Notes: generated by a model from the sequence alone, not told the origin. 54,791 bases of DNA from an uncultured Bacilli bacterium (GCA_944358875.1 CALVRZ010000003.1:1-54791); one strand, 5' to 3'. Numbered from the stretch's first letter, positions 12,300-26,861 are shown. Made by a program: numbers and translations.

Positions 12300-12304
12300 T
12301 CCTC

Positions 12305-12630: not shown

Positions 12631-12652
12631 CTCCATCATAAAGTTATCTTTT

Positions 12653-12913: not shown

Positions 12914-12916
12914 ATA

Positions 12917-14119
12917 CTACCTCCTCAATTCTATTTCTTCTAAAGGTTCCCATTCTACATATTTTAACATTTTATCATCTTCACAATGTATAAATTCAAC
13001 TGGACTATATTTTTTAAAATATCCACCACATGCAATAGGCATTATATCATCAGGAACAATTCCTATATAATCTTCCCCTTTAAAAGCTTTCTTTATCACA
13101 TCTACACCATATATTTGTACAGGTATATTCTTTTCATTAAGTACATTGAATATTTTAGCTATTTCAATTTTTCTTAAAATTTTACTACCATCAAGTGATA
13201 AATAATATCCCTTTTCATCATGACCAACTTGCAAATTAACTCTTGCAAAAGAATGACCTCTTATAATTTCCCAAGGATGTCCACCAAATTTATCATCATT
13301 ATACCATTTATCAAACAAAGCACTACTATTCTCATCAATTTCTCTTAACCCATCATCTCTACCATCAGCATATTTTAAATATAACTCTTTATCCGTTAAA
13401 TTACCTATTTCATACCCTAAATACTTATACACCATGCTAACATATTCAAAATATTTACCTGAAGTCATATCTTTTATTCTATCTTCTGTTTTATCACTTG
13501 CCTTTGCCATAAAATAATCAATTTCTTCTTGCGATATTTCATTTAATAAATTCTTCTTAATATCAGGATATAATTCCCAATATTTACTTCTTTTTATTAC
13601 TCCAAATCTATTCTTATATGAATAATTTTCTTTTATATAATTATTATAAGTTCCCTTTTCAAGTTCCTTTATACAATCATTTACCTTATTTATAAGAAAA
13701 TCCAATAATTCCTGTAATTGATAATTTTCAAAACAATCATTTTCATTATCCATATCAGCATATATAATCATTTTAGAATTAATAGATATCATGCGATAAT
13801 TTTCATATCTAGTTGAAATCATTTTATACCAATAAATCTCATCCGGATAATCACTATTAAAATTATCAACAAATTCCTGATAACTTGAAACATCCCCAAA
13901 TGCTTTTAACTCTTCATAATTACCATATTCTTGGATACTACCTTTTTTAGTACTAAAATATAATACTTTATATTCATCATCAGATAATGGTTTAATTTTA
14001 TCAAGTAAATCATATAATTTATTTAATTTATCTTTAACTAATACATCATATATTTGTGGATTAACATTTCTACTATCAAACACACTAATTAAAAAATCCA
14101 ATTTAGAAGCACACATCAT
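12917..14119 (-). CDS. Conserved hypothetical protein
   Basis: 400-aa ORF with RBS; ADGRDDGL and GGHPWEI motifs; function not recognised. Confidence 0.75.
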   Translation of the reverse strand: MMCASKLDFLISVFDSRNVNPQIYDVLVKDKLNKLYDLLDKIKPLSDDEYKVLYFSTKKGSIQEYGNYEELKAFGDVSSYQEFVDNFNSDYPDEIYWYKMISTRYENYRMISINSKMIIYADMDNENDCFENYQLQELLDFLINKVNDCIKELEKGTYNNYIKENYSYKNRFGVIKRSKYWELYPDIKKNLLNEISQEEIDYFMAKASDKTEDRIKDMTSGKYFEYVSMVYKYLGYEIGNLTDKELYLKYADGRDDGLREIDENSSALFDKWYNDDKFGGHPWEIIRGHSFARVNLQVGHDEKGYYLSLDGSKILRKIEIAKIFNVLNEKNIPVQIYGVDVIKKAFKGEDYIGIVPDDIMPIACGGYFKKYSPVEFIHCEDDKMLKYVEWEPLEEIELRR

Positions 14120-14159
14120 GATTATTCCTCCCTACTGCTAACTTAATATATTTTATTTT

Positions 14160-15155
14160 CTAAACCTTATAATACATCTGATTTTTACTTGTTGGTTTAT
14201 CTGGATTAGTCATTTTAATTAATCCATTATCAATCGCTGGTTTAAGATAATTTTCCCTAAAAGATTTTTTTGATTTTAAATTTAATTTTTTCATAAGTTC
14301 AAGCGTTGTCATCGATACACCATTTTCCATAACATTAAGTAACTTATTAACATAAGGACTAATATGATTAATATGATTATTAGTACTATCAATTAATTCA
14401 TCTAACACTTCATCAATCATTTTTAACATAAATTCAATAAACGTTGTTGAATTTCCATGTAAATGACATTCCTGAATAGTTTTATAGTAATCATCTTGAT
14501 ATTTTTTTATCTGTGACTCAATTGGGACATATTCAAATATTTTTTCCCAATTAGCTAAAATTATATTCTGCCACAATCTAACAATTCTACCATTACCATC
14601 TGCAAAAGGATGAATAAATACAAATTCATAATGAAAAACAGATGATAGTATGAGAGGATTAATTTCATTTGTCTTTTCTCTCATCCAATTAAATAGAGAA
14701 TCCATCAATGTATCAACCATTTCAGGTTTAGGTGCCATGAAAATACAATTATTATTCTCATCAAAAACACCTTCAGCACCAGTTCTAAATTTGCCATCTT
14801 CATCTACTAATAAATAAGTCATAATTCCATGTGCTTTCTTAATATCATCAATTGAATATGGATTAAATTTCATCATCATTTCATAAGCTTTATAAGCATT
14901 TTTTACTTCTTGTATATCATTTTTATCACCTATAACTGTCTTACCACTAATAACATCTCTTACCTGATTAAATGATAAAGAATTAGCTTCAATTGCAAGT
15001 GAAGAATGAATAGAACGAATTCTATTATTTTTTCTTAAAACAGGCATCTTATTTAATCCTTGATAATTATCTATCATTCCTATTTTTTTCATAATTGAAG
15101 CAACACGATCTAACATCATATTAGTAATATCAAAAGGTGGAATATAATCATTCAT
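14160..15155 (-). CDS. Fic family protein with C-terminal HTH-like domain
   Basis: Canonical HPFADGNGRIVR, SLAIEAN inhibitory-type motif, and C-terminal YLKPAI..PDKPTSKNQMY. Confidence 0.92.
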   Translation of the reverse strand: MNDYIPPFDITNMMLDRVASIMKKIGMIDNYQGLNKMPVLRKNNRIRSIHSSLAIEANSLSFNQVRDVISGKTVIGDKNDIQEVKNAYKAYEMMMKFNPYSIDDIKKAHGIMTYLLVDEDGKFRTGAEGVFDENNNCIFMAPKPEMVDTLMDSLFNWMREKTNEINPLILSSVFHYEFVFIHPFADGNGRIVRLWQNIILANWEKIFEYVPIESQIKKYQDDYYKTIQECHLHGNSTTFIEFMLKMIDEVLDELIDSTNNHINHISPYVNKLLNVMENGVSMTTLELMKKLNLKSKKSFRENYLKPAIDNGLIKMTNPDKPTSKNQMYYKV

Positions 15156-15210
15156 CTATAACCACTCCATTCTCAAATTATTATACCATTTATTCATATC
15201 ATTGTCAATC

Positions 15211-15246
15211 ATCTTAGGTGTTATCTTAGGTGCTATCTTAGATGTT
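15211..15246. repeat. 3 x 12-bp tandem repeat next to the fic -35 box
   Basis: ATCTTAGGTGTT ATCTTAGGTGCT ATCTTAGATGTT. Confidence 0.8.
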
Positions 15247-16034
15247 TAATCAAGTTTCTTACCAACATAAACACCTAAACATAAAAGTAACAAACATATC
15301 ATTAATTCATATATATTACTAATATTCCCTATAACTCTACCAAAAAGAATTATCATACTACCTATTACTAAACCTAATACTAAAGAATAAGTCTTCTTTT
15401 TATATTTACTAAATAAATAATTCATAAGATAACTAACTAATATTAATCCAACCATCATACCTATCCCATAATATATAAGAATAAATAAATTAACTTCACT
15501 AATCGCCGTCATAATAATATCATAACTACCAAATAACATCAGTAAAGCTGTCGAACTAAGTCCTGGAATAACTGTCCCAAAAGCATCGATTAACCCCGAT
15601 ATCATAAATACCAATAAATCCATATAACTATTACTAATTACATAAATATTATTATCACTTAAAGTATCTAATAATAAAACACTAATTAAAGCAAAGATAA
15701 AGATTATATACCCACTTCTCTTTCTACAAATATTCTTATATACACTAGGTATACCTCCCATGATTAAACCTAAAAATAAAAACATCGTAAAAACATAATA
15801 ATTATTAAGTAAAAACATAACTATCTTACTACCTACAATAAAAGAAATACCTACTCCTATTCCTAAAGGAACTAAAAATCTAATATTATTTTTAACATCA
15901 CTAAAAAAATTCGTAATAGCCTTAATACCCTTATCATAAATACCTAAACTAATAGCAAGTACCGCTCCTGATACCCCAGGTATAATCTTAGCCATACCAA
16001 TTAAAAAACCTTTAATAACTAACATATTCTTCAC
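15246..16034 (-). CDS. DUF368 family membrane protein
   Basis: IIPGVSGA and VIPGLSS duplicated motifs. Confidence 0.88.
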   Translation of the reverse strand: MKNMLVIKGFLIGMAKIIPGVSGAVLAISLGIYDKGIKAITNFFSDVKNNIRFLVPLGIGVGISFIVGSKIVMFLLNNYYVFTMFLFLGLIMGGIPSVYKNICRKRSGYIIFIFALISVLLLDTLSDNNIYVISNSYMDLLVFMISGLIDAFGTVIPGLSSTALLMLFGSYDIIMTAISEVNLFILIYYGIGMMVGLILVSYLMNYLFSKYKKKTYSLVLGLVIGSMIILFGRVIGNISNIYELMICLLLLCLGVYVGKKLD

Positions 16035-16061
16035 CTGATAAAATATATGAAAAAAAGAAGA

Positions 16062-16316
16062 TTAATTATTCCTCTTCTTAATTTTCATCTTCTTTTTATC
16101 AATAATAATAGATAAATCATTAATATCATAATTATCAATTACATAAGAATTAATCTTCTTTCCAACTTCCATATAGATATCTTTATTCATACTAATAACA
16201 CTAATATCATTAAAAGTAAAACAACCTGTATCAAAAATACCCATACTAGCTAAATATCCATTAATACCAACCATCATATCTTTATTCTTACTAAGAAAAT
16301 AAACATTACTACTCAT
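16062..16316 (-). CDS. Hypothetical protein
   Basis: ORF with RBS GGGGG and basic C-terminal tail. Confidence 0.55.
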   Translation of the reverse strand: MSSNVYFLSKNKDMMVGINGYLASMGIFDTGCFTFNDISVISMNKDIYMEVGKKINSYVIDNYDINDLSIIIDKKKMKIKKRNN

Positions 16317-16335
16317 AATACCCCCATCTAATTAA

Positions 16336-16929
16336 TTACTTAAGTATTCTAACTTTATTAGGTAATTTCTTCTCAATAACTTTACCATCTTTATCTAAAG
16401 GTAAAATATTATTAAATGGACCATTACCAAATAATCCTATAAATTCATCTTTTCTAATTTGCATTAAATCATAATCTCTACTTTTAGCCGTAACTAAAAA
16501 TTCATTACCTTGTTCCATAAATACATATCCAAGATTACATCCCATAAAAGCCTCTAAAGCTAGATAATAATTTCTAACTTTCTCAGGTAAATCAATTCTA
16601 TATTGCCAACTATAATTACTATTAGCACTATTAACCTGCATATAAATAAGTGGCACTTCTTCAAAAGAATGTTCAATTCCATAATAATCGAGCCATAAAG
16701 CTTTATCTTCTAAATGATTATTAGCTACATATTGACGTACTCCTTTTAAAACTTCACCATACTTACTTCTTTCAATCATTAAAGCAGGTCTACTACAAAC
16801 AGAAACTATACCAATATCTTCATCACTAATTCCCATCCCATTAGTTAAAAAAGCATTAATTTCTCTTAATGTATCAAACTTCCTTTCTTCTTTAATTTGC
16901 AAAAACTTCTTATAATTCTTATTTTTCAT
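16336..16929 (-). CDS. Hypothetical protein
   Basis: 197-aa ORF, RBS AGGAGG. Confidence 0.7.
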   Translation of the reverse strand: MKNKNYKKFLQIKEERKFDTLREINAFLTNGMGISDEDIGIVSVCSRPALMIERSKYGEVLKGVRQYVANNHLEDKALWLDYYGIEHSFEEVPLIYMQVNSANSNYSWQYRIDLPEKVRNYYLALEAFMGCNLGYVFMEQGNEFLVTAKSRDYDLMQIRKDEFIGLFGNGPFNNILPLDKDGKVIEKKLPNKVRILK

Positions 16930-16999
16930 ACATTTCTCTCCTCCTATATCTAAAAATTATAACACTTTAAATCTAAAATGCAAGAAAACATTTGTTATT

Positions 17000-17229
17000 T
17001 TTTTAAGACTTCTTTTTCCAACTCCTTAATAGATTTTTTAGAAGTTGATAATTATTCAGGCATTGTACCACCAAATTATTTTATCGTTTCCCGCACTGCA
17101 TTTCCTACTTTATAATGAGTATAGATAGAAACTTGCACATTTCCATTTCCATCCACTATCGGTTTCCTGAACTCAGGAAAGTGTTCAATAACCATATTAT
17201 TACTAGTTTCACAAGCAATCATAGCCTTT
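17000..17229 (-). pseudogene. dinD: DinD-family remnant with a large internal deletion and two stops
   Basis: Manual translation: KAMIACETSNNMVIEHFPEFRKPIVDGNGNVQ / VSIYTHYKVGNAVRETIK*FGGTMPE*LSTSKKSIKELEKE, i.e. N- and C-terminal DinD-like motifs joined. Confidence 0.75.
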
Positions 17230-17256
17230 CACATAGCAAAAAAAAACTAAGTATTT

Positions 17257-17856
17257 CTACTTAGCACTCTTAACCATTCTCTTCCAAAAATTATCCCCCT
17301 TAGCTATATAAGCCCATATATAACTAATCATAACTAGTATTGATCCAAGTATCGCACATATCATATCTTTCATTGTATCATGCACACCTGTTGTTAATAC
17401 CTTTTGCGTATCTGTTCCCATAACATTATCAATTGTAAATTCAACACATTCCCATAAAGGAGCAATACTTATTGAAAATAACATTGCAAAAAAACAACTA
17501 TATAAAATTTTCTTACTATCATATTCCCTAAACCAAATAAGAATAAAAATACCCATAACAAAAGTAAACATCCCCGATAAAAAATGCGTAAAAGAATCAT
17601 ACCAACTAATCAAAGAAAAAAATCCCATAATACTACCAAGTAACATAGTTAATATAATAAAAACAATATATACAAATTCCAATCCATCACTAATCCTAAT
17701 TTTAAACAACTTTCTAATTATCTTAAAAACCAATAAAACAGGTATAATAGCAATACATAAAAGAACTCTATCAATTCCATAATAACCTTCTATAAACAAA
17801 AACAAATAAGCACTAATAACTGATAATATAATCAATAAATTATTAATCTTCTTCAT
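17257..17856 (-). CDS. Membrane protein, DUF2238/YjdF-like
   Basis: WYDSFTHFLSG, LWECVEF and DTMKDM motifs. Confidence 0.75.
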   Translation of the reverse strand: MKKINNLLIILSVISAYLFLFIEGYYGIDRVLLCIAIIPVLLVFKIIRKLFKIRISDGLEFVYIVFIILTMLLGSIMGFFSLISWYDSFTHFLSGMFTFVMGIFILIWFREYDSKKILYSCFFAMLFSISIAPLWECVEFTIDNVMGTDTQKVLTTGVHDTMKDMICAILGSILVMISYIWAYIAKGDNFWKRMVKSAK

Positions 17857-18053
17857 AATCTACCTCCTTTAACATTATAAAACAAAATTATTAATAATAT
17901 ATACCTATTCCTTAACAATATACTAAAAATTATATAATATTTTTATATAATTATCAATAAAATTATCTTTATTATATTCTTTTCTAAACCATCTACAATA
18001 AAACTTTAAACATATTTTTTAAATTTTTTTAATTCTAATATACCATTTTCCCT

Positions 18054-19082
18054 TTAAAACTTATTATAACTATTAATACTAGAATAATAACTCTTATAAC
18101 TAATAATCCCCTTATTATATAAATAAGTCTTTTTTCTAATATTTCTTCTAATTTTATTTCTTTTATTACTAGAATATTTAATAATAGTCTTATTATTAAT
18201 AACCCTATATCTACTACCTAAAAATATAAAACCATGCTTAATATTAACAATCATACATTTATTATTATTTAACTTTAATTTATATTCCTTATCTAATTTA
18301 TCTTCTATAACTTTATATACATATTTTAAATATTCTTTATCATGATGAATTAATATAAAATCATCAACATACCTAATATAATATTTAATATGTAAATTAT
18401 GAATAATATAATGATCGAACTTATATAAATAAAATATCGATAATATTTGATTAATAACACTTCCTATACTAAGTCCTTTACCAGATTCATATAAAGGAAT
18501 ATTACTAATTTCTTTACTTCTTTTCTTATCAATATTAATAAGTTTATTCTTAATATTAATAATACTATCATTAATATAACTATAATTAGTACTATCAATA
18601 AATTTACAAATAATATCATATTCTTCACTACTCAGTTTATCAATTAATAAATCTTTTAATACTTTATGATCAATACTATAAAAATACTTACTAATATCTA
18701 ATTTTAAAACATATATATCTTTATATTTCTTATTTAATTCAATATATCTATTTAATAATTTAACAGCATAACTATATCCCATCTTCTTTCTAGAAGCTAC
18801 ATTTCTAATATCTAAATACTTATTAATTTTAGGTAATAATATATATTTAGCAATATAATGACTAATAATCTTACTACTAATATTCATACTCATAATAATT
18901 CTATATTTAGGATCCTTAATATAAAATATATTATATTTTATATTAAAATTATTAATATTAATTAATTTATATAAATTTTCAAATTTATATAAATCATAAT
19001 AATATATCTTTTTATTATTCTTAGTATTCTTACTAATTTCTTTATTATAAATATCTAATAACTTATCAAATTCAAATTTCAT
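18054..19082 (-). CDS. DGR reverse transcriptase
   Basis: FYIKDPKYRII, LKLDISKYFYSIDH, GLSIGSVINQ, YIRYVDDF, GFIFLG; 342 aa, no maturase or endonuclease domain. Confidence 0.95.
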   Translation of the reverse strand: MKFEFDKLLDIYNKEISKNTKNNKKIYYYDLYKFENLYKLININNFNIKYNIFYIKDPKYRIIMSMNISSKIISHYIAKYILLPKINKYLDIRNVASRKKMGYSYAVKLLNRYIELNKKYKDIYVLKLDISKYFYSIDHKVLKDLLIDKLSSEEYDIICKFIDSTNYSYINDSIINIKNKLINIDKKRSKEISNIPLYESGKGLSIGSVINQILSIFYLYKFDHYIIHNLHIKYYIRYVDDFILIHHDKEYLKYVYKVIEDKLDKEYKLKLNNNKCMIVNIKHGFIFLGSRYRVINNKTIIKYSSNKRNKIRRNIRKKTYLYNKGIISYKSYYSSINSYNKF

Positions 19083-19417
19083 TTATTCATCCATCCATAT
19101 ACCATTTTAATAATAATACTCAACTTATCTATTCTACTAAGTACTTGTTTCTTACTCAAATACTTATTCACATAACATCTTTCTAAATAAAAATCTAACA
19201 TATTAATATTAGCTAAAATATCTAAACAAATATTATATCTAATAATCTTATTATTAGAATAATTAGCTTTATATATTAAATATAATATATTATAACTAGT
19301 AATATATAATTTATCTTTAATAACTCTATCTTTATTAGGAATATTAATAATAACTTTATCTATATTATTAATAAATTCTTTCATATATTTACTAATTAAA
19401 AACCTATCTTCATTCAT
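19079..19417 (-). CDS. avd: Avd-like accessory variability determinant (four-helix bundle)
   Basis: 112-aa basic helical protein, I..AN motif, C-terminal KMVYGW; ATGA overlap with rt. Confidence 0.85.
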   Translation of the reverse strand: MNEDRFLISKYMKEFINNIDKVIINIPNKDRVIKDKLYITSYNILYLIYKANYSNNKIIRYNICLDILANINMLDFYLERCYVNKYLSKKQVLSRIDKLSIIIKMVYGWMNK

Positions 19418-19769
19418 ATATAACTCTTTCTATATATTCTAATATAATATTTAATTTATTACTATCTAATTTATATAAACTAGATACTATATTATTAATT
19501 CGATTATTAATATCAATATTACTCTTAGCTTTAATCAATATATTATTATATCTATTTTCTTTATTTATATATTTATCAATAATATTATTTTTATTATAAA
19601 TAATATAATCAATCTTATTATCTATAAGTATATTTACTACCTTATTAATACTATTAATAGGAAATCCTACTCTATTATTAATTATTTTATAATTACATAA
19701 ATAACTAATAATAATACTATCATCATTATAACAGTGATAAAATCCCCCTTTTATATATAATTTAATCAT
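19410..19769 (-). CDS. MutS domain-I-like DGR accessory protein (copy 3)
   Basis: KGGFYHCYNDDS.IISY..NYK....VGFP pattern matches the MutS_I GxFYE..D..GvP layout. Confidence 0.72.
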   Translation of the reverse strand: MIKLYIKGGFYHCYNDDSIIISYLCNYKIINNRVGFPINSINKVVNILIDNKIDYIIYNKNNIIDKYINKENRYNNILIKAKSNIDINNRINNIVSSLYKLDSNKLNIILEYIERVIYE

Positions 19770-19794
19770 AACATTCCTTTCTATTATAGGTATA

Positions 19795-19916
19795 GGAAGT
19801 TTACGTATAAACTTCCCTCTATAACTTTGTTTTAGAGTATAACTCTAGGATAGACTTTGTCCTTTAAAACTCTAATTATATAGCCTTAACCATATAATAT
19901 TCATTATATAAAGGGC
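19795..19916 (-). ncRNA. Structured spacer 3' of the TR (candidate Sp region of the DGR RNA)
   Basis: 9-bp stem with UACG loop (19795-19816), 6-bp stem (19833-19847), and possible 19829-19837/19862-19870 pairing. Confidence 0.5.
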
Positions 19917-20015
19917 TGGGCGGGAAGCGTTAGAATTCGTGACGTTGTTGTTGTTGACATAGCCAGAATTGTTCACGTTAAAGACGTTGTTGGAGTTACT
20001 GGAGTTCGGAGTAAT
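19917..20015 (-). repeat. DGR template repeat (TR)
   Basis: Non-coding; 11 AAC + 2 AAT codons in the VR frame; aligns ungapped to 21311-21409 (offset 1394). Confidence 0.97.
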
Positions 20016-20023
20016 ATGTAAGT

Positions 20024-20335
20024 CTACCCTATACAATTAATAACTTTAATAATACATATAATCTTTAAATAATAGTCATACCTATTATCATAATATCTAT
20101 TAATCTCTATAATATCTAAATTATTTAATATCAAATAATTAATTCTTTTTCTTTTAATAATATTAGTATTACCCTTAAACTTAATATATTTTAATATATC
20201 ATTATCATAACCAAAACTATAATAATTACCTAATCTATATATAATAACTAAATAATCACTATATATATTCTTAGTAAACTTATACCTATTTATCATACTC
20301 ATATAACATATTCTTAATACTAACCAATTTATCAA
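20024..20335 (-). CDS. MutS domain-I-like protein (copy 2, more divergent; start may be 20302)
   Basis: MINRYKFTKNIYSDYLVIIYRLGNYYSFGYD resembles the MutS N-terminus. Confidence 0.6.
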   Translation of the reverse strand: MINWLVLRICYMSMINRYKFTKNIYSDYLVIIYRLGNYYSFGYDNDILKYIKFKGNTNIIKRKRINYLILNNLDIIEINRYYDNRYDYYLKIICIIKVINCIG

Positions 20336-20669
20336 TATCTAATGAAATTAATATATTATTAATTTCATCAATTAAAGTATCATACTTTGCTTTATTATAC
20401 CCTTTAACTAAATATTCATTATATACTTCACTATCCCCATATATAATATCATTATCAATAACATAACCAATATTAAGTTTATTTAGTTTATTACATATTT
20501 TAACTTTATTAGTAATAGGAAAACTAACTTTACTATCAATAACCTTATAATTAAATATATAACTAATAATATAACTATCACTAAAATATGTATAATAAAA
20601 ACATCCTCTTTTAATAAATATAATCTTATCACTATTATTTAATTTTAAATTATTATATTCCTCTAACAT
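20286..20669 (-). CDS. MutS domain-I-like DGR accessory protein (copy 1)
   Basis: MLEEYNNLKLNNSDKIIFIKRGCFYYTYFSDS..ISY..NYK....VSFP; clear paralogue of 19410..19769. Confidence 0.75.
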   Translation of the reverse strand: MLEEYNNLKLNNSDKIIFIKRGCFYYTYFSDSYIISYIFNYKVIDSKVSFPITNKVKICNKLNKLNIGYVIDNDIIYGDSEVYNEYLVKGYNKAKYDTLIDEINNILISLDIDKLVSIKNMLYEYDK

Positions 20670-20781
20670 AATATCACCATATTAAGATTAACACATAACT
20701 ATATAAATAAAATAAATTTATTCCAATAGAATAAGTTTATTTCTTATTAATTAAATTTATATAAAATTAAATTGTGATAAC

Positions 20782-21087
20782 ATGTATAATAATTTAATTA
20801 AAAGAAGAATAAAATTAGGAATTAAAAGAAAAGATATCGCTGAAATACTAGGTTATAGTTTATCTCATTATTCAAATATTGAAAACGGCATAAAAGCATT
20901 ACATATAAGAGAATTATATATACTATCTTATATATTAAATGTTGATAATATGTATATTATAGGTTTAATAGATAAACCAATACCACTAAATAAATATAAA
21001 AGAGAATGTATAAAAAAATATTATAATTTAGATGATATTGCCATAAAAAAACTATATGGAAAAGATGTATATGACATCACAAAATAA
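20782..21087 (+). CDS. XRE/Cro-family HTH regulator, divergent from the DGR operon
   Basis: RIKLGIKRKDIAEILGYSLSHYSNIENG. Confidence 0.88.
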   Translation: MYNNLIKRRIKLGIKRKDIAEILGYSLSHYSNIENGIKALHIRELYILSYILNVDNMYIIGLIDKPIPLNKYKRECIKKYYNLDDIAIKKLYGKDVYDITK

Positions 21088-21100
21088 TTTCTAATTCTAA

Positions 21101-21138
21101 AAACCAATGTGCTTTAAAAACACATTGGTTTATTTTTT
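21101..21138 (+). terminator. Terminator between the HTH gene and the DGR target (possibly bidirectional)
   Basis: AAACCAATGTG-N9-CACATTGGTTT followed by ATTTTTT. Confidence 0.75.
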
Positions 21139-21150
21139 CCACAAGGCTTA

Positions 21151-21215
21151 CCTAGAGAAGTATTTCATACTTCCCTAGGATGAGAAATAGAAGACTTACG
21201 CCTTCTATATTTCTC
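21151..21215 (-). other. Two hairpins downstream of the DGR target (candidate retrohoming cis elements)
   Basis: CCTAGGGAAGTAT-GAA-ATACTTCTCTAGG (21179-21151) and GAGAAATAGAAG..CTTCTATATTTCTC (21182-21215). Confidence 0.5.
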
Positions 21216-21232
21216 TTATTTTATTTAGTTTA

Positions 21233-22594
21233 TTATTGCCCTAAAGTGTATGGATTTCCATAAGTTCCTGATCCACCAGTTATTGTAACATCAGAGTTTA
21301 GATAAAGGATGGGGCGGGAAGCGTAAGAATTCGCGACGTAGCTGTAGCTGACATAGCCAGAACTGCGCACGCCAAAGACGTAGTCGGAGTCACTGGAGAG
21401 CGGAGTAAGTGTCCATTGGACAGTGCTTGTATTTCTAAGCCATGAGGTATCACGACAGTTAGTTTGATCAGTATCCCAGTTATATCCATCTTTACTACAT
21501 TTAGATAAATCGCCTGCATACATATAATCTGATGGATACATTAAAGCTATTTTTCCTGTCCATTCAGTACTTCTTCCAGAATATACCGTTGTTCCTCTTT
21601 CAAATGTATAATAATCATTGGCATATAATCCTTTATATGTAAAACTACCTCCTAAATTCCATTTAGCATTACCTATCATTGCTTGAGATTCAGTAGATAA
21701 GCTATTTAGATAAGTTCCATTTAAATAAGTATTTAAAGTGGCTGTAGACCATTCATTTGCACCGTTACTATTCCAAGCATAATTACCTATACTCTCACTT
21801 CTTGCTATCTTTATTCTTGTTTCCTTTTTACCTGTTCCATCATCAATATTTTGAAAGACTCCAATTATTCGCCATAATTCATTATTAAATGTTACATAGT
21901 TATTAGGATCAGCTCCATAATAACGAATATTACCTCCAACATCTTCCATCATACCCACTGATGGTGCATATTGATATTCTACACTATTATTTGTTACTGT
22001 TGTTTTTTCAGCACTTGTAAAGATATTTGCTATAGTAGCAGTTCCTGTACTAGGTGCCACATACTCACTACCTACTCCATCTACTGTAAGCTTACCAACA
22101 AAATTCTTACCTATCTGTGTATTTGGAGTAGTAATATCCAACCATAATCTAATATCTATAACTACTTCTTCACTAGGATTTAAAGTAATATCACTCTTGA
22201 TTGTTCCATCTGTTAAACTACTATAACTAACAGGATTATCACTATCTACCATTATCTTTAAATAATTAGTATCAATACTATTTTCTGTCGTATTATTAAC
22301 TAATTTCAAATCAAAAGTATAACTTAAATTACCATTATTCCTTAACTTTAACTTAAATGGAGTTGTTTGTTTCCCTTCATCATCACTCATAGGTAAAGAA
22401 TTAGTAAGGGAAATTGAAGTATTATACCCTTCTTCATCAACTAATTCAATATCTAATATTCCTGTTGTATATGCCTCATTATTAGTAAAATTACTCTCAC
22501 TATAAAATAAAGCATAAGAAGAAGCTGTTAATAAACCTATTATTAAAACAATTCCCAAAACCAAAGTAACAATTACCATTTTTTTATCTTTCAT
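21233..22594 (-). CDS. DGR target: secreted TasA/SipW-type N-terminal domain + C-terminal C-type-lectin-like variable domain
   Basis: Signal ending SSYA-LF, then N...TGILDI; WRIIG, LNTYLNGTYLN and WTLTP...ASRPILYL, with the VR near the C-terminus. Confidence 0.88.
   Translation of the reverse strand: MKDKKMVIVTLVLGIVLIIGLLTASSYALFYSESNFTNNEAYTTGILDIELVDEEGYNTSISLTNSLPMSDDEGKQTTPFKLKLRNNGNLSYTFDLKLVNNTTENSIDTNYLKIMVDSDNPVSYSSLTDGTIKSDITLNPSEEVVIDIRLWLDITTPNTQIGKNFVGKLTVDGVGSEYVAPSTGTATIANIFTSAEKTTVTNNSVEYQYAPSVGMMEDVGGNIRYYGADPNNYVTFNNELWRIIGVFQNIDDGTGKKETRIKIARSESIGNYAWNSNGANEWSTATLNTYLNGTYLNSLSTESQAMIGNAKWNLGGSFTYKGLYANDYYTFERGTTVYSGRSTEWTGKIALMYPSDYMYAGDLSKCSKDGYNWDTDQTNCRDTSWLRNTSTVQWTLTPLSSDSDYVFGVRSSGYVSYSYVANSYASRPILYLNSDVTITGGSGTYGNPYTLGQ
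21311..21409 (-). repeat. DGR variable repeat (VR)
   Basis: 18 mismatches to the TR in 99 nt, all at TR adenines; encodes LTPLSSDSDYVFGVRSSGYVSYSYVANSYASRP. Confidence 0.97.
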
Positions 22595-22699
22595 ATATGG
22601 TTACCTCCATATCTTTACTATTAACATAATATCATAATAAATAACATTTATCAAGATTTTTTCTTTAATTTATGTTATCATTATAATAGGTGGTAAAAT

Positions 22700-25036
22700 A
22701 TGTTTAATATTGAAGAGGAATTAACTAATTATATCAACAAATATAAAAGATTTATGTCTAAAGATATCTATATAACTGATAAAATGTATACAACATTCTT
22801 AAATAAATACAAATACTTATACCAATACTTACATCATACTAACCCCTATTATCATTTCTTAAGAGAAATAATAATAGATAAAAATAAAATAATCAAAAGA
22901 CATAATAATCAATATTTAAATCATAAACTAAAAGAATATGATGATTATTTCAATAACATGTTTAAAGATATCAAATTAGATTTAGATCAAAAGAAAGCTA
23001 TTATCTGTGAAGAAGATAATCTCTTAGTTATCGCTGGAGCCGGAGCCGGTAAAACTACTACTATGGCTGCTAAAGTTAAGTATTTAATTGATAAATGTAA
23101 CTATAAACAAAGTGATATTGCTGTTATCTCATTCACTAATAAAGCTTGTGATGAAATCAAAGAAAGAATCCATAAATATTTTGGCTATACTGATGTTGAT
23201 GTTTATACTTTTCATAAACTAGGTATGAAAATATTAAGAAGTTCTACTAGTGAAAAACTAGATATTGTAAGTGATGCTCATAAATTTCTCTTGTTAAACA
23301 ACTATATCAAAAAAGAACTCTTTTCCAATAAAGAAAAATTTGATAAATTCTATCATGCTTTTCAAAATAGATTAGGTATTAACAACGACTATCAAAACTT
23401 TAAAACTTTTAAAGATTATCATGACTATTTATATAAAAGAAAATATACTACTAATAATAAAGATCTAACCAACTACTTAAAGAAAACCATTCAAAAAAGA
23501 AGAAATTACTTAAAAACAATCAAAGGAGAATATGTTAAATCTAAAGAAGAAGTCGATATAGCTAATTTCTTATATTTAAATGGTATTAATTATGAATATG
23601 AAAAAATATATGATAACAAAGTAAATAATCATATCTTAAAACCAGATTTCTATATCTATGAAAATGAATTATTTAATTATATTGAAAACTTTGGTATTGA
23701 TAAAAATAATAACAATACTTCTTTTACTGATAAAGAATTAGATAATTATCTAAATACTTTAAAACTTAAACAAGATTTTCATAGAAAAGAAAAAAATAAA
23801 GATCTATTTATTATAACTACTTCTAGTATGAAGTATTATGAGAAAATGAATTATTTAAAAAATGAATTAGTTAAACGAGGTTATACTCTAAATAGAACTA
23901 GTAATAATGATATATACAATACTTTAAAAAATACTAGTGAAAATAGTTATTTCTATGATTTTATTGAAAAATTACTTATTCCCTTTATATCTTACTTTAA
24001 ATCAAGTAATTATGATAAAGAATATTTACTAAATATCAAAGAACATCAAAATGAATTACTACAAGAACAAATAGAAGTAATATTAGATTTCTATGATTAT
24101 TATCAAGACTATCTAAAAGATAATCATCTTATTGATTTTGATGATATGATTAATTTATCATATCAAGTCATAGATAAAGTGGGAGAAAAGAATTTAGGTG
24201 TTAATTACAAATATATCATCATCGATGAATATCAAGATATATCTATTCAAAGATATAATTTAACTGACAAAATAGCTAAACTATTTAATGCCAAAATCTT
24301 TGCCGTTGGTGATGACTATCAATCTATCTTTGCTTTCGCTGGTTCTAGAGTGGATTTATTTACTAATTTCAAACAATATATGCAAAATGCAAAAAAGATA
24401 CCTATTGAAAATACTTATCGTAATTCTCAAGAACTATTAGATATAGCTAAAGACTTTATCAACAAAAATAAACATCAAATCGAAAAAACTCTTAAATCCA
24501 ATAAGCATCTAGCTAAGCCAGTCGAAATCTATTTATATGATGATAGTGATCCTTTCTACTCTAATACTCATAAAGCTAAAGCTATTAACTATATTATGAA
24601 TAAAATAAATCCTAATGAAAAAGTCCTTTTCTTAGGAAGATATAACAAAGATATTGATTCTTTACTTCTAGATAAATACTTTACCAAAAAGAATAAAGAA
24701 AGAATTATTTGGAACAATAATCCTGATCTTAAAATAGATTTCCTAACTGTCCATGCCTCTAAAGGTTTAGGTTATGATGAAGTAGTTTTAATTAACGCAA
24801 TTGATGATAAATATGGTTTTCCATCTAAAATTGAAGATGAACCCTTAATTAAATTGATTAAACCAAGTATTGATGAAAATATTATGTACCCTGAAGAAAG
24901 AAGATTATTTTATGTAGCTTTAACTAGAACTAAAAATAAAGTATATATTGTCTGTCCTAAATCTAAAGTATCTTCTTTTGTTAAAGAAATATCATATAAC
25001 AAAAATGTCTATATACATAAACAAATAATAGAATAG
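22700..25036 (+). CDS. UvrD-family helicase (helicase IV-like) with inserted nuclease-like segment
   Basis: AGAGAGKT, IDEYQD, VGDDYQSI, TVHASKGL, EERRLFYVALTR; insert KSKEE..IANFL..KPDF..IENFG. Confidence 0.9.
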   Translation: MFNIEEELTNYINKYKRFMSKDIYITDKMYTTFLNKYKYLYQYLHHTNPYYHFLREIIIDKNKIIKRHNNQYLNHKLKEYDDYFNNMFKDIKLDLDQKKAIICEEDNLLVIAGAGAGKTTTMAAKVKYLIDKCNYKQSDIAVISFTNKACDEIKERIHKYFGYTDVDVYTFHKLGMKILRSSTSEKLDIVSDAHKFLLLNNYIKKELFSNKEKFDKFYHAFQNRLGINNDYQNFKTFKDYHDYLYKRKYTTNNKDLTNYLKKTIQKRRNYLKTIKGEYVKSKEEVDIANFLYLNGINYEYEKIYDNKVNNHILKPDFYIYENELFNYIENFGIDKNNNNTSFTDKELDNYLNTLKLKQDFHRKEKNKDLFIITTSSMKYYEKMNYLKNELVKRGYTLNRTSNNDIYNTLKNTSENSYFYDFIEKLLIPFISYFKSSNYDKEYLLNIKEHQNELLQEQIEVILDFYDYYQDYLKDNHLIDFDDMINLSYQVIDKVGEKNLGVNYKYIIIDEYQDISIQRYNLTDKIAKLFNAKIFAVGDDYQSIFAFAGSRVDLFTNFKQYMQNAKKIPIENTYRNSQELLDIAKDFINKNKHQIEKTLKSNKHLAKPVEIYLYDDSDPFYSNTHKAKAINYIMNKINPNEKVLFLGRYNKDIDSLLLDKYFTKKNKERIIWNNNPDLKIDFLTVHASKGLGYDEVVLINAIDDKYGFPSKIEDEPLIKLIKPSIDENIMYPEERRLFYVALTRTKNKVYIVCPKSKVSSFVKEISYNKNVYIHKQIIE

Positions 25037-25058
25037 TAATTCCACTATTCTATTATTT
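25023..25058. terminator. Bidirectional terminator
   Basis: 15-bp perfect inverted repeat AAATAATAGAATAGT-N6-ACTATTCTATTATTT between convergent genes. Confidence 0.75.
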
Positions 25059-25678
25059 TATTGATAAGTTTTCATCTTTATATCTATCATAAATATATCA
25101 ACAAGTAATTTATCTAAATTAGAAGATCTGATCGAAGTACTATCATTATCTAATAATCTATCAATATTATCTAAAAGATAACTAATATCTTCTTTACTTA
25201 TACATTTAACCATTCTTCTTAGTTGGGTTTCCGTTTTTCGATAATCATTAATACCATAATATTTCTTAATATATAAATTATAATCAGTACTTTTAATTGG
25301 CGTTTTTCTACATTTACATAATACAAATATAAGTTCAAAAGTAGGGTTGATAAAAAATATTTGATTCCTTTTAATATCAATATCATTATCCTTATATTCT
25401 TTCATAATATTATTTACTGTCTTTCTACCATCCAAATCATAAATAACCAAAACATCAGCATCAGGATTAATTTTCTTAATTCTTTTATATTCTCTAATAA
25501 TTCTAGTCGCATCCTTAGCATTAATAAATATAAGATTATAATTACTATCAAATAAACTATTCAAATGTCCTAGGAAAATCATCTCCGTCAAGCCCTCAAC
25601 AATTACATACAAATTTTTTTTAAATAAATTATTCTTCATAAAATATATTATACAAATCAGGATTAGGTAAAGCACCAA
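25058..25678 (-). CDS. RloB-like (AbiLii-like) TOPRIM-fold protein; true start probably near 25636
   Basis: VEGLTE, YDLDG and NPTFE motifs; downstream of an AAA ATPase. Confidence 0.78.
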   Translation of the reverse strand: MVLYLILICIIYFMKNNLFKKNLYVIVEGLTEMIFLGHLNSLFDSNYNLIFINAKDATRIIREYKRIKKINPDADVLVIYDLDGRKTVNNIMKEYKDNDIDIKRNQIFFINPTFELIFVLCKCRKTPIKSTDYNLYIKKYYGINDYRKTETQLRRMVKCISKEDISYLLDNIDRLLDNDSTSIRSSNLDKLLVDIFMIDIKMKTYQ

Positions 25679-26777
25679 AATAACCTTTCAAATAAGATTT
25701 CAAAGCATTATTTCTAATACCCTTATCCTTATTATCCTTAAATGAATTTAATGAATAAAGTAAAACTTCATTTTTATCTTTGTATGTAAAATATATTTGA
25801 TCTTTTCTAAATAAATATTTAGTATCTAATAATAATAAATCATGAGAAGTAGTTAATAATTGCATATTCATATTACATTCATCATTAAACAAAGATATAA
25901 GTGTCTTAGTTAATAATGTATGTAAATGACTATCAATTTCATCTACAACCAAAATACCACCATTTCTCTTACATTTTATAATTTGTAAAATATAATACAT
26001 AAACACTCTAGTACCTGATGAATCCACAACATAACTAGGAGCACTTTCACTCTTATTATTCATTTTATAATAAGATATTAACTGATACTTTTTATTCTTA
26101 AATGCATTCTTTTCTAATTTTACCTTTTCAATACTAATATCAGCTTTTTTAATTATTTTATTAAATTTATCTAATTCTTCCTCACTCAAATTATCAATAT
26201 CATCAACAAGATTATCAAACATAAAAGAATTAACAATATACATTTTAGCAAAAAATTCATTAATAGCATCTACATATTTTTTATATTTCATAGGAAGTGT
26301 TTTAATAATTAATTTATCACTATAATTTTTAAGTAATTCTACAGCATTTCTCATTTCATCATCAATTACTTCACCAAAACGATTAAATAACAATTTATCA
26401 TCAACATATAAAATTTCTTTACTTATTTTTCCTTCATTTATAGAAAGATAATATTTAAAATCAGTATTATTACTTATAAACTCTATTTCAAAATCAATAA
26501 TTTTTTCATCATTAAAAAAATTATATAACAAATCAGATTCTGTAAAAACATCTAAAATTGTACCTTTTTGTATCATATCTTTTAATAAAGATAAAGAAAA
26601 AATTAGATTAGTTTTACCCGTATTATTTGGGCCATATATAATAAGAGACTTAAGAATCCTTTTATTATTAACCATAAAAACATTATCTGTATTTTTTATA
26701 TCTTTATTACCTATAAAAGATAAATCAATTTCTTTATTAAAAGTCGTAAAACCATTCAACTTAAAATCCACTAACAT
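25629..26777 (-). CDS. AAA_21/RloA-like ABC-type ATPase
   Basis: YGPNNTGKT, SSGT, VVDEIDSHLH, TSHD, RKDQIYF, YLKGYFGALP. Confidence 0.88.
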   Translation of the reverse strand: MLVDFKLNGFTTFNKEIDLSFIGNKDIKNTDNVFMVNNKRILKSLIIYGPNNTGKTNLIFSLSLLKDMIQKGTILDVFTESDLLYNFFNDEKIIDFEIEFISNNTDFKYYLSINEGKISKEILYVDDKLLFNRFGEVIDDEMRNAVELLKNYSDKLIIKTLPMKYKKYVDAINEFFAKMYIVNSFMFDNLVDDIDNLSEEELDKFNKIIKKADISIEKVKLEKNAFKNKKYQLISYYKMNNKSESAPSYVVDSSGTRVFMYYILQIIKCKRNGGILVVDEIDSHLHTLLTKTLISLFNDECNMNMQLLTTSHDLLLLDTKYLFRKDQIYFTYKDKNEVLLYSLNSFKDNKDKGIRNNALKSYLKGYFGALPNPDLYNIFYEE

Positions 26778-26861
26778 TTAATATCCTCCTCTCTTGCTAA
26801 ATATTATAACACATATTAAAAGAGTATGCAATTTTTTTGCATACATACATAAAATTTAAAT

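What the first reader, a model, noticed from the sequence alone, without database searches (positions are those of the whole stretch)
18054..22594. Complete chromosomal DGR showing past adenine mutagenesis
Seen: TR 19917-20015 and VR 21311-21409 align without gaps, with 18 mismatches, all at TR adenines (coding strand). In the 97-nt core the 16 changes are 9 A>G, 5 A>T and 2 A>C. All 11 AAC codons of the TR are changed in the VR (to L, D, D, Y, G, R, S, Y, S, Y, Y). rt and avd are intact and translationally coupled. No phage genes flank the locus. Established: this is the signature of DGR mutagenic retrohoming. Inference: a cellular, host-domesticated DGR.
Basis: partly seen in the sequence, partly recalled or inferred. 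Interest (0 to 1): 0.85.

Follow-up and report, generated by a model that had tools for sequence, protein, structure and literature searches.

The report
Active chromosomal DGR diversifying surface lectins
This is a genuine, complete diversity-generating retroelement in the chromosome of an uncultured small-genome gut bacterium that rewrites the tip of a surface lectin-like protein; it is a well-equipped example of a known kind of system, not a new kind.

Summary
TR 19917-20015 and VR 21311-21409 align without gaps. All 18 mismatches sit at TR adenines (97-nt core: 16 of 16, P=1.8e-10), and all 11 AAC codons are changed. The locus is a complete DGR: RT, Avd and TR, followed by a conserved structured RNA, with the VR at the 3' end of a 453-aa surface protein whose DUF6273 domain has a C-type-lectin fold.

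- Two or three MutS-domain-I-like (MSL) accessory ORFs bracket the TR. This is the rare "Architecture D" of Wu et al.
- Two remote paralogous VRs lie on other contigs.
- The same 1.31-Mb genome holds a second complete DGR.
- The target family has at least 26 members.

The element has been active in nature. A 97%-identical orthologue differs at 11 of 33 VR residues but at only 2 of 420 elsewhere. Across 13 orthologues, the hypervariable VR positions are exactly the A-bearing TR codons. TR and VR also co-vary in length, (AAC)4 against (AAC)5, between strains.

No phage genes flank the locus, its wider chromosomal setting is shared with a congeneric genome, and it lies in a defence-gene island.

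Verdict: a new member of a known kind, of moderate interest.

The parts
18054..19082 (-). DGR reverse transcriptase (342 aa, pI 9.7)
   Evidence: Pfam RVT_1, E 1.7e-14, 54.5 bits against a cut-off of 29.6. The best solved relative is chain 8ub7_A (328-aa 'Reverse transcriptase'), E 5.8e-14, ahead of a group II maturase at 6.2e-8. Motifs IGSVINQ and YVDD are present. Family relatives carry the canonical IGNM(T/S)SQ.
19079..19417 (-). Avd accessory protein (112 aa, pI 9.5); its stop overlaps the rt start (ATGA)
   Evidence: Pfam bAvd, E 5.8e-9, over the whole model (positions 2-106 of 107), but 36.9 bits is below the cut-off of 40. NCBIfam DivGenRetAVD, E 9.5e-7, 29 bits against 80. The pI matches the 9.5 +/- 0.7 published for Avd. 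No PDB sequence hit.
19410..19769 (-). MSL-b: MutS-domain-I-like accessory ORF (119 aa)
   Evidence: Pfam MutS_I, E 0.006, 17.3 bits, below the cut-off of 20.6. It is 35-36% identical to orf127, with shared invariant G-x-F-Y...D. The exact protein is seen on 16 contigs.
19800..19916 (-). Conserved structured RNA ('spacer') directly 3' of the TR. Helix 1 pairs 19914-19909 with 19866-19861. The hairpin pairs 19899-19888 with 19885-19874.
   Evidence: Nearly invariant against G001, whereas the cassette as a whole is 87.5% identical. In a consensus structure from 5 related DGRs, 10 of 18 pairs show compensatory changes. 85.6% of cells are paired, against 41-57% when the partners are slid, and 0 of 500 shuffles reach the observed value. 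The single-sequence fold has z -2.9.
19917..20015 (-). Template repeat (TR): non-coding, 44-45% GC in a 14-17% GC cassette, 11 AAC codons including an (AAC)4 run
   Evidence: It is the only non-coding copy of this repeat in the genome.
20024..20335 (-). orf103 (probable start at ATG 20302, 92 aa): a conserved DGR-associated small ORF, possibly a third, truncated MutS-I-like paralogue
   Evidence: Homologues sit in the second DGR (orf106) and in G001. It aligns to the N-terminus of the genome's own MutS (YRLG-x-Y-Y). hhalign against the MSL group gives E 0.0011 and probability 20%. Atlas leads point to MutS_I clusters at scores of 0.77-0.79. No Pfam or PHROG hit. Inconclusive.
20286..20669 (-). 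MSL-a: MutS-domain-I-like accessory ORF (127 aa, pI 5.4)
   Evidence: Pfam MutS_I, E 1.9e-6, 28.5 bits, above the cut-off of 20.6. The exact protein is seen on 29 contigs.
20782..21087 (+). Xre-type HTH regulator on the opposite strand, between the target and the cassette
   Evidence: Pfam HTH_3, E 6.2e-9. An HTH gene occupies the same position in G001, but it is a different paralogue. Its role in the DGR is inferred only.
21233..22594 (-). Target (variable) protein, 453 aa: N-terminal signal/anchor helix, Ig-like sandwich (about 45-177), DUF6273 C-type-lectin-fold domain (182-453)
   Evidence: Pfam DUF6273, E 5.3e-6. The AlphaFold domain model has pLDDT 85 and pTM 0.88. It matches the DUF6273 N-terminal domain of the T. 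ramosa IgA peptidase (9qa6_A) at Z 16.8, rmsd 2.8, 196 residues aligned. Nearly all the other rows are CLec-fold proteins, including the DGR variable proteins TvpA (2y3c, Z 5.1) and TaqVP (5vf4, Z 4.2).
21311..21409 (-). Variable repeat (VR1): codons 396-428 of the target, ending 25 codons before the stop
   Evidence: Hypervariable among orthologues at the TR-adenine codons.
21298..21322 (-). IMH-like 3' boundary of the VR: a GC-rich block GCTTCCCGCCC identical to the TR, then VR-specific bases (VR T where the TR has C at 19915, in all three VRs)
   Evidence: Its function is inferred by analogy with the BPP-1 IMH/IMH*.

Best explanation
The locus is a complete, resident chromosomal diversity-generating retroelement.

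Proposed mechanism. The non-coding TR and the structured RNA that follows it are transcribed. The RT, with the small basic Avd protein, copies the TR into cDNA and misincorporates opposite template adenines. The cDNA then replaces the homologous VR at the 3' end of the adjacent target gene. Directionality is set by the GC-rich IMH-like boundary.

Consequence. Up to 30 adenine positions in the 97-nt core are randomised: 11 AAC, 2 AAT and 1 ACG codon, plus the adenines of four codons (ACT, AGT, TAT, CCA) that vary little or not at all. These positions lie in the ligand-binding face of a C-type-lectin-fold (DUF6273) domain on a cell-surface protein.

Other targets. The same TR family has also written two paralogous target genes elsewhere in the genome.

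Accessory ORFs. Two or three MutS-domain-I-like (MSL) ORFs bracket the TR. This places the element in the rare MSL-plus-Avd class.

Shown here: the A-specific TR/VR relation, the gene set, the fold, the variation across strains, and the TR-VR length covariation. Inferred: the order of biochemical steps (by analogy with the Bordetella phage DGR), the function of the RNA structure, and the roles of MSL and the HTH gene.
For: TR/VR relation. All 18 mismatches lie at TR adenines, P about 1e-10 to 1e-11. All 11 AAC codons are changed, in frame.

Proteins. The RT is nearest to chain 8ub7_A among solved structures. Avd-like and MSL proteins hit the bAvd and MutS_I models. MSL is a published DGR accessory class that always occurs with avd (passages of PMC5758913).

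Target fold. The domain is DUF6273 with a CLec fold. Published phage DGR targets carry their VR at the C-terminus of DUF6273 (passages read).

Remote VRs. VR3 on contig C30 has 20 of 20 mismatches at TR adenines plus one extra codon. VR2 on contig C2 has 14 of 17 at A plus two extra codons.

Activity in nature.
- Orthologue P0056 (97% identical) differs from the window's protein at 11 of 33 VR residues, but at 2 of 420 elsewhere (Fisher P 3.8e-12).
- Among 13 orthologues, the 14 VR positions with 4 or more different residues are exactly the 11 AAC, 2 AAT and 1 ACG codons. All 14 codons without A have 2 or fewer residues.
- The exact Avd, orf119 and orf127 proteins recur on 15, 16 and 29 contigs. 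The exact target occurs on 1.
- In run X6 the TR has an extra GTT behind 19943 and the VR an extra codon behind 21337. The offset is 1394, so the register is the same.
- G001's TR has (AAC)5, and 5 of the 13 orthologues carry the five-residue form.

RNA. A conserved RNA structure follows the TR, with compensatory changes.
Against: - The Avd hits are below both curated cut-offs: 36.9 against 40 bits and 29 against 80 bits.
- The RT has N where the canonical DGR motif IGxxxSQ has S. No RT phylogeny was built.
- All sequencing runs are held as assembled contigs only, so there is no within-sample read-level evidence of ongoing mutagenesis. The per-position VR differences were cut from the read-laying table.
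- Some differences among orthologues may reflect strain-specific TRs rather than new retrohoming.
- The two remote VRs differ in length from the present TR, and VR2 has 3 non-A mismatches. They have therefore not been rewritten since the TR changed, or they depend on a template that is not in the assembly.
- There is no expression evidence. The promoter scan was uninformative, with 60 sites against 55.4 +/- 7.5 in shuffles.
- The RNA structure rests on 5 sequences, two of them nearly identical, and it was derived from those same sequences.
Confidence: 0.9

Rival explanations
1. Relic DGR. The element wrote the VRs in the past but is now inactive, and the variation among strains is old standing polymorphism.
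For: The remote VR2 and VR3 are out of register with the present TR, and VR2 has accumulated non-A changes. No read-level, within-sample data could be obtained. There is no expression evidence.
Against: All ORFs are intact, and exact copies recur on many contigs. A 97%-identical orthologue differs almost only in the VR, 11 differences against 2. TR and VR1 share the derived (AAC)4 length in this genome and the (AAC)5 length in run X6, so VR1 was rewritten after the TR length changed.
Confidence: 0.07
2. The DGR belongs to a prophage or other mobile element and diversifies a receptor-binding protein, as in the DUF6273 'tentaclin' and Faecalibacterium prophage systems.
For: DUF6273 targets are known from gut phages. 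The cassette is 14-17% GC against 28.7% for the genome. It lies in a variable defence island, and the 13.4 kb next to rt (window 4623-18054) is not there in G001.
Against: No phage structural, lysis or integrase genes were found among the 15 ORFs scanned within about 7 kb of the locus on either side. The target has a signal/anchor helix and a TasA-like sandwich rather than tail-fibre modules. At least 26 paralogues are scattered over the chromosome. The best phage RT is 33% identical. The cassette's identity to G001 (87.5%) is within the range of neighbouring chromosomal genes, 79-88%.
Confidence: 0.04
3. The TR is a decayed fragment of a duplicated target gene, or the product of gene conversion among the many paralogues. 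On this reading the mismatch pattern is not made by reverse transcription.
For: The genome has at least 26 paralogous C-terminal domains that could recombine.
Against: All 18 mismatches lie at adenines of one copy only (P about 1e-11). The same holds for VR3, with 20 of 20. The TR is adjacent to an RT-Avd operon. Across-strain variation is confined to the A-bearing codons.
Confidence: 0.01

Closest known systems
Bordetella phage BPP-1 DGR (prototype: mtd-avd-TR-brt)
   Same: It has RT plus Avd, a non-coding TR, and a VR at the 3' end of a CLec-fold protein. Mismatches are adenine-specific and AAC codons are used. A GC-rich IMH-like boundary is present, and a structured RNA follows the TR. The window's RT is closest to chain 8ub7_A, which I recall, unverified, to be the BPP-1 bRT.
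   Different: This element is chromosomal, not phage-borne. The gene order is target - HTH(+) - MSL - orf103 - TR - RNA - MSL - avd - rt. It has MSL accessory ORFs, at least three targets including remote ones, and a DUF6273 target rather than Mtd. The RT motif is IGxxxNQ.
MSL-containing DGRs ('Architecture D' of Wu et al. 2018; Legionella DGR; Bacteroides Bfr/Bth/Bun DGRs)
   Same: A small MutS-domain-I-like accessory protein occurs together with Avd (passages read). The elements are cellular.
   Different: Here two clear MSL paralogues, plus a possible third, bracket the TR. The genome's second DGR has an MSL-Avd fusion ORF. The host is a reduced-genome Bacilli. I could not see the supplementary tables of Wu et al., which may list similar duplications or fusions. 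Their stated MSL size range of 112-283 aa would accommodate a fusion.
DUF6273 DGR targets of gut phages (tentaclins of phages nd4/nd12; Faecalibacterium prophages Lelie, CP11, Roos, Pioen)
   Same: The variable domain is DUF6273, with a C-lectin-like fold. In the Faecalibacterium prophage targets the VR maps to the C-terminal end of DUF6273, as here.
   Different: Those proteins are phage tail or receptor-binding proteins. In the tentaclin target1 proteins of nd4 and nd12 the DUF6273 domain is N-terminal and the VR lies near the gene's 5' end. Here the domain sits on a cellular protein with a signal/anchor helix and a TasA-like sandwich, and it belongs to a family of at least 26 members.
DGRs of small-genome CPR bacteria (Architecture B3, TR-(avd)-RT)
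   Same: The genome is small, 1.31 Mb, and invests in DGR-diversified surface proteins. The TR lies upstream of avd and rt (passage on B3).
   Different: The organism is a Bacilli with peptidoglycan genes, from chicken gut. MSL genes are present and avd is on the same strand.

Membership tests
Diversity-generating retroelement | A TR/VR pair whose differences are confined to TR adenines | tested here: met
   18 of 18 mismatches at A (core 16 of 16), P 1.8e-10 to 1.9e-11. VR3 has 20 of 20 at A.
Diversity-generating retroelement | A reverse transcriptase of the DGR type next to the TR | tested here: met
   RVT_1 is above its cut-off. The best PDB relative is 8ub7_A at 5.8e-14, against 6.2e-8 for a group II maturase. 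YVDD is present. Motif 4 reads IGSVINQ, and relatives in the same bacterial family have IGNM(T/S)SQ. No phylogeny was built.
Diversity-generating retroelement | The VR lies in frame at the 3' end of a target ORF, and the TR is non-coding | tested here: met
   The VR covers codons 396-428 of 453. The TR lies between ORFs and holds stop codons just downstream in that frame.
Diversity-generating retroelement | An IMH at the VR 3' end that differs from the IMH* at the TR 3' end | tested here: inconclusive
   The GC-rich block is identical in the TR and all three VRs. It is followed by positions where all VRs differ from the TR (T against C at 19915; C against A at 19907). The function cannot be tested in silico.
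Diversity-generating retroelement | An Avd accessory protein | tested here: inconclusive
   A full-length match to bAvd (E 5.8e-9) and a match to DivGenRetAVD (E 9.5e-7), both below their curated cut-offs. The size (112 aa), pI (9.5) and position, overlapping rt, all fit.
Diversity-generating retroelement | The variable protein displays the VR on a C-type-lectin (or Ig) fold | tested here: met
   DUF6273 is above its cut-off. The domain model matches 9qa6_A at Z 16.8. Most of the other 49 rows are CLec-fold proteins at Z 4.1-7.1, including TvpA and TaqVP. Each of those weaker scores would not suffice alone. The literature calls DUF6273 C-lec-like.
Diversity-generating retroelement | VR diversity in natural populations with a conserved TR | tested here: met
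   For the VR, (13 orthologues). The TR is weaker: it is identical in run X1 (possibly the source sample), and shows 2 substitutions plus one AAC insertion over 378 nt in X6. Runs X4 and X15 have no listed contig over the TR.
MSL (MutS-like) DGR accessory proteins | A small protein with similarity to MutS domain I, encoded in a DGR that also has avd | tested here: met
   orf127 scores 28.5 bits and the fused ORF of the second DGR 33 bits, both above the MutS_I cut-off of 20.6. orf119 scores 17.3 bits, below it, but is a clear paralogue. A profile against PDB MutS chains gives only E about 0.3.
MSL (MutS-like) DGR accessory proteins | Retention of the Phe-x-Glu mismatch-contact motif of MutS (motif recalled, not taken from a call) | tested here: not met
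   Aligned to the genome's own MutS (GDFYEMF), the MSLs keep G-x-F-Y, but the Glu position is Y, H or N. orf103 has Y-Y-S. They may still bind DNA, but they are unlikely to act as MutS does.

The most novel reading that the evidence does not exclude
The two or three MutS-domain-I-like ORFs that bracket the TR, and the MSL-Avd fusion in the sister DGR, are an element-encoded shield against the host's own mismatch repair. They would bind the densely mismatched cDNA:VR heteroduplex, or the RT-Avd complex, and keep the host's full-length MutS from restoring the parental VR. This genome retains that MutS.

A second bold reading concerns the TR's (AAC)5 to (AAC)4 contraction. It time-stamps retrohoming and shows that the adjacent target is rewritten far more often than the remote ones.
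Probability: 0.25. Interest if true: 0.6.

Novelty: new member of a known kind. Interest (0 to 1): 0.35.

Why it matters
DGRs are the only known natural machines for targeted protein hypermutation in prokaryotes, and they are being developed as directed-evolution tools. This locus adds little in principle, but it is a compact and unusually informative natural example for four reasons.

- It is an MSL-class element with duplicated MSL genes, in a genome that keeps MutS. That makes it a good system for asking what MSL does, given that host MutS lowers retrohoming 5- to 10-fold in Bacteroides.
- It has one local and two remote targets, plus a natural TR length marker. Together these allow cis and trans targeting rates to be compared.
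- It has a short conserved RNA element after the TR that can be tested by compensatory mutation.
- The host is a 1.3-Mb genome with two DGRs and at least 26 lectin-like surface proteins. This suggests that variable adhesion is central to the lifestyle of this uncultured chicken-gut Bacilli lineage.

Tried and rejected
- **Rfam.** A scan of 17000-23000 found only two sub-threshold sRNA matches (23 bits against gathering scores of 64-80), with no known family for the TR or spacer.
- **Promoters and terminators.** The scan was uninformative in this AT-rich DNA: 60 promoter-like sites against 55.4 +/- 7.5 in shuffles, and 0 terminators.
- **A second TR for the remote VRs.** BLAST of the TR against the whole assembly found only the TR and three VRs at strong E-values. 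The other 15 of the 19 matches had E above 0.04. BLAST of the 3' ends of 20 paralogues found further coding paralogues but no other non-coding template. Contig gaps may hide some: the assembly has 56 contigs, is 94% complete, and many paralogues sit at contig ends.
- **Read laying.** All four runs are contigs, so rare variants are invisible. The VR positions were among the 180 rows not shown. Paralogues and other organisms contribute contigs, so depth and most 'joints' are assembly-graph artefacts. One example is the 19935>21350 joint, which carries VR3-like letters.
- **Metagenome pattern scan.** The scan for the shared TR/VR 3' end gave 19 loci. Only 1 (L069) is a relative, another VR variant with several non-A differences. 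The other 18 are chance matches in unrelated contigs of 38-66% GC.
- **Avd and orf127 against PDB sequences.** No hits at E up to 1. The MSL profile against PDB gave MutS chains only at E about 0.3, mixed with unrelated proteins.
- **orf103 and MSL.** hhalign gave probability 20% and E 0.0011 over 34 columns, and the Atlas scores were 0.77-0.79. These are leads, not proof.
- **Whole-protein Foldseek.** The list was dominated by Ig-like chaperone and pilin hits to the N-terminal sandwich. The TasA match (8aur, Z 6.6) is too weak to claim a fibre-forming subunit.
- **Identity of 8ub7.** No paper in the library names the entry, so its identity as the Bordetella bRT is from recall only.
- **Cassette mobility.** I considered an independently mobile cassette because both immediate flanks differ in G001. 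The wider synteny is kept, however, with UvrD and the target's 5' part on one side and window 4623-1 on the other. I therefore read this as local rearrangement of a defence island.

Full report
**Observation**

The direct repeat is real: 19904-20014 against 21298-21408, 82% identity, offset 1394. All genes of the locus except one lie on the minus strand, so I read it there.

TR 20015->19917 and VR 21409->21311 align without gaps, with 18 mismatches, all at TR adenines. The 97-nt core has 30 adenines. Sixteen are changed (9 A>G, 5 A>T, 2 A>C) and 14 are not. The chance that 16 random mismatches all fall on A is 1.8e-10, and 1.9e-11 for 18 of 18 over 99 nt.

**Anatomy**

Reading 5' to 3' on the minus strand:
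- target gene 22594-21233, 453 aa, with the VR at codons 396-428
- an Xre-type HTH gene on the opposite strand (20782-21087)
- orf127 (20669-20286), which matches MutS_I above the Pfam cut-off
- orf103 (20335-20024), with no family hit
- the TR (20015-19917)
- a 147-nt non-coding stretch
- orf119 (19769-19410), with a weak MutS_I match; it is 35-36% identical to orf127
- avd (19417-19079)
- rt (19082-18054)

orf119 and avd overlap by 8 nt. avd and rt overlap by ATGA.

The cassette is 14-17% GC, against 28.7% for the genome and 32.5% for the target. The TR is 44-45% GC.

**RT and Avd**

The RT matches RVT_1 (E 1.7e-14). Its best solved relative is chain 8ub7_A, a 328-aa 'Reverse transcriptase' (E 5.8e-14), ahead of a group II maturase at 6.2e-8. 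I recall that entry as the Bordetella phage bRT, but I could not verify this.

Motif 4 reads IGSVINQ. RTs from other genera of the same bacterial family read IGNM(T/S)SQ, the canonical DGR form. This genus has N for S in both of its DGR lineages.

Avd matches the bAvd and DivGenRetAVD models along their whole length, but below the curated cut-offs. Its size and its pI of 9.5 fit the published Avd class.

**MSL accessory ORFs**

Small MutS-like accessory proteins are a published but rare DGR class. They occur in 16 of 372 DGRs, always together with avd, and define 'Architecture D' (passages of PMC5758913). They are also noted in three Bacteroides DGRs (passage of bioRxiv 10.1101/2024.11.15.621889).

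Here two clear copies bracket the TR. orf103 may be a third, truncated copy. It aligns to the N-terminus of the genome's own MutS around YRLG-x-Y-Y. The profile-profile result (probability 20%, E 0.0011) and the Atlas result (0.77-0.79) remain inconclusive.

Against the genome's own MutS motif GDFYE, the MSLs keep G-x-F-Y but not the Glu. The significance of Phe-x-Glu is from recall.

The genome retains a full-length MutS of 857 aa. In Bacteroides, host MutS lowers retrohoming 5- to 10-fold. An anti-repair role for MSL is therefore a reasonable hypothesis, but it is untested.

**RNA element after the TR**

The roughly 120 nt after the TR are nearly invariant between this genome and its congener G001, although the cassette as a whole is 87.5% identical and the TR itself 81%.

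I aligned the TR-downstream segments of five related DGRs: this one, G001's, the second DGR of this genome, and those of two other genera. The consensus has two parts. A 6-bp helix joins the last TR/IMH* bases (CCUUUA, 19914-19909) to a conserved UAAAGG (19866-19861). This helix encloses a 12-bp hairpin.

Ten of the 18 pairs show compensatory changes. 85.6% of cells pair, against 41-57% when the partners are slid, and 0 of 500 shuffles reach the observed covariation.

The sample is small and the structure was derived from the same sequences, so this is supportive rather than conclusive. By recall, the BPP-1 DGR RNA also needs a spacer that pairs with the TR 3' end and provides the priming site. 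The resemblance is inferred.

**Target protein**

The full-length model (pLDDT 78) has three parts: an N-terminal helix (signal or anchor), a beta-sandwich at about 45-177, and a C-terminal domain at 182-453.

Folded alone, the C-terminal domain gives pLDDT 85 and pTM 0.88. [quoted passage not shown] That domain is described as DUF6273 in PMC12402451 (passage).

Almost all the other rows are C-type-lectin-fold proteins at Z 4.1-7.1. They include the DGR variable proteins TvpA (Z 5.1) and TaqVP (Z 4.2), FGE-like PvdO (Z 5.4) and many animal CTLDs. Singly these scores are weak. Together, and with the literature statement that DUF6273 resembles a C-lec domain in phage DGR targets, with the VR mapping to its C-terminus in the Faecalibacterium prophage targets (passages), the fold assignment is sound.

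The sandwich domain weakly resembles TasA (Z 6.6). I do not build on that.

**More targets and a second DGR**

Searching the whole assembly (1,313,880 bases, 56 contigs, 94% complete) with the TR found two more VRs. They lie at the 3' ends of paralogous genes on contigs C2 (448 aa) and C30 (455 aa).
- VR3 (C30) differs from the TR at 20 positions, all adenines, plus one extra NNC codon in the (AAC)4 run.
- VR2 (C2) has 14 A and 3 non-A mismatches, plus two extra codons.

G001's TR has (AAC)5. In run X6 the TR gains GTT behind 19943 and VR1 gains a codon behind 21337, in the same register. Five of the 13 orthologues carry the five-residue form.

The simplest reading is as follows. The TR was (AAC)5 and contracted to (AAC)4 in this lineage. 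VR1 has been rewritten since then. The remote VRs have not, or they depend on a template that is missing from the assembly.

A second RT, 54% identical, lies at the end of contig C19. With it are:
- an MSL-Avd fusion ORF
- a 46-nt AAC-rich TR2 between RT2 and an orf103 homologue
- a 353-aa DUF6273 target downstream, and a second VR on contig C41

All TR2 mismatches against the C41 VR are at adenines. One non-A mismatch occurs against the C19 VR (my reading of the alignment).

In all, 26 loci encode this C-terminal domain (20, 6 more). Some are fragments cut by contig ends. Three of them (C15, C54, C10) share another VR-like scaffold. Seventeen form a third group with a hypervariable stretch before GVRPVLSLKS. 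No template for either group is in the assembly.

**Activity in nature**

The locus is held by 20 of the 24 runs listed, from 12 studies. Most of the labelled ones are chicken-gut metagenomes.

The exact Avd, orf119 and orf127 proteins occur on 15, 16 and 29 contigs. The exact target occurs on one.

Among the 13 closest target orthologues (86-100% identical), the VR positions with four or more different residues number 14. They are exactly the 11 AAC, 2 AAT and 1 ACG codons of the TR. All 14 VR codons without adenine show at most two residues.

P0056, 97% identical overall, differs at 11 of 33 VR residues and at 2 of 420 others (Fisher P 3.8e-12). One of those 11, V409M, is at a codon without adenine.

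Contigs of three other samples that span VR1 carry many differences:
- X4: 15 differences over 354 nt
- X15: 23 differences over 638 nt
- X6: 20 differences over 336 nt

Contigs over the neighbouring HTH region carry 0-1. These spans also include target-body sequence, and paralogues may contribute to them.

Within-sample heterogeneity could not be tested, because only contigs are held.

**Setting**

Relatives are titled 'uncultured Bacilli bacterium'. RT homologues occur in 6 of the 18 other genomes of the same family, all 0.8-1.3 Mb, and in 0 of the 12 sampled outside it.

No phage structural or integration genes flank the locus. The neighbours are two AbiEi/AbiEii pairs, a Fic (SoFic-like) protein, AbiLi plus an RloB-like protein, and a UvrD/GajB-like helicase.

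In G001 the target's 5' part and the UvrD gene lie together on contig C60. The cassette lies on contig C8. About 900 nt after rt, C8 continues with the orthologues of window 4623-1. So the chromosomal region is shared, but the 13.4 kb of island genes next to rt here are not there in G001.

The best phage RT in 50,697 phage records is 33% identical.

**Comparison and verdict**

The element works like the BPP-1 prototype and belongs to the MSL-plus-Avd class of cellular DGRs. Its target domain is already known from phage DGRs. What is unusual is a matter of degree:
- duplicated MSL genes flanking the TR, and an MSL-Avd fusion in the sister element
- two DGRs and at least 26 lectin-like paralogues in a 1.3-Mb genome
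- a natural TR length marker that separates a recently rewritten local VR from two older remote VRs

I rate it a new member of a known kind, with interest 0.35.

Supplementary files, which may list comparable MSL architectures, could not be read.

Noticed in passing
Genome contig C19:24102-27573 (loci L010/L011); VR also on contig C41:160-369: A second complete DGR. It has RT2 (54% identical), an MSL-Avd fusion ORF, a 46-nt AAC-rich TR2 between RT2 and an orf103 homologue, and a 353-aa DUF6273 target downstream of the RT. All TR2 mismatches to the C41 VR are at adenines.
   Followed up: partly
Whole genome G000 (contigs C2, C6, C8, C10, C12, C15, C18, C19, C20, C21, C29, C30, C37, C41, C43, C46, C51, C52, C54): At least 26 loci encode the target's C-terminal lectin-like domain, many at contig ends. 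Three (C15, C54, C10) share a VR-like scaffold, and 17 form a third group with a hypervariable stretch before GVRPVLSLKS. No template for either group is in the assembly.
   Followed up: partly
window 10880-17856 and 22700-28353: The DGR sits in a defence/toxin-antitoxin island: AbiEii/AbiEi at 10880-12299 and 26862-28353, a SoFic-like Fic protein at 14160-15155, AbiLi plus an RloB-like protein at 25058-26777, and a UvrD/GajB-like helicase at 22700-25036. Window 4623-18054 is not adjacent to rt in the congeneric genome G001.
   Followed up: partly
window 21135-21212: A 78-nt element of two hairpins lies downstream of the target's stop. It recurs after the C2 paralogue. At 87% identity it also recurs next to the DUF2238 orthologue in G001 contig C61, where no target gene follows within that contig's remaining 270 nt. 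It may be a repeated terminator or a small intergenic repeat.
   Followed up: partly
end of contig C19 (L010:3270-3352) and G001 contig C26 (locus L035): Tandem ACAACAACAC(AGC) repeats lie directly upstream of the MSL-Avd fusion ORF in both genomes, and the contig ends inside them. They read through as an open frame, but may be non-coding.
   Followed up: no
window 21419-21421 (target residue 392): Residue 392 lies four codons upstream of the VR and outside the TR homology. It shows 6 different residues among 13 orthologues, as variable as the VR sites.
   Followed up: no
window 18054-20669: The cassette genes are 14-17% GC, against 28.7% for the genome. The TR embedded in them is 44-45% GC and the target is 32.5%.
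   Followed up: no
window 22066-22462 (target residues about 45-177): The N-terminal sandwich of the target weakly resembles the TasA fibre subunit (8aur, Z 6.6) and an archaeal bundling pilin (7ueg, Z 5.8). This raises the untested idea that the variable lectin is displayed on a fibre.
   Followed up: no
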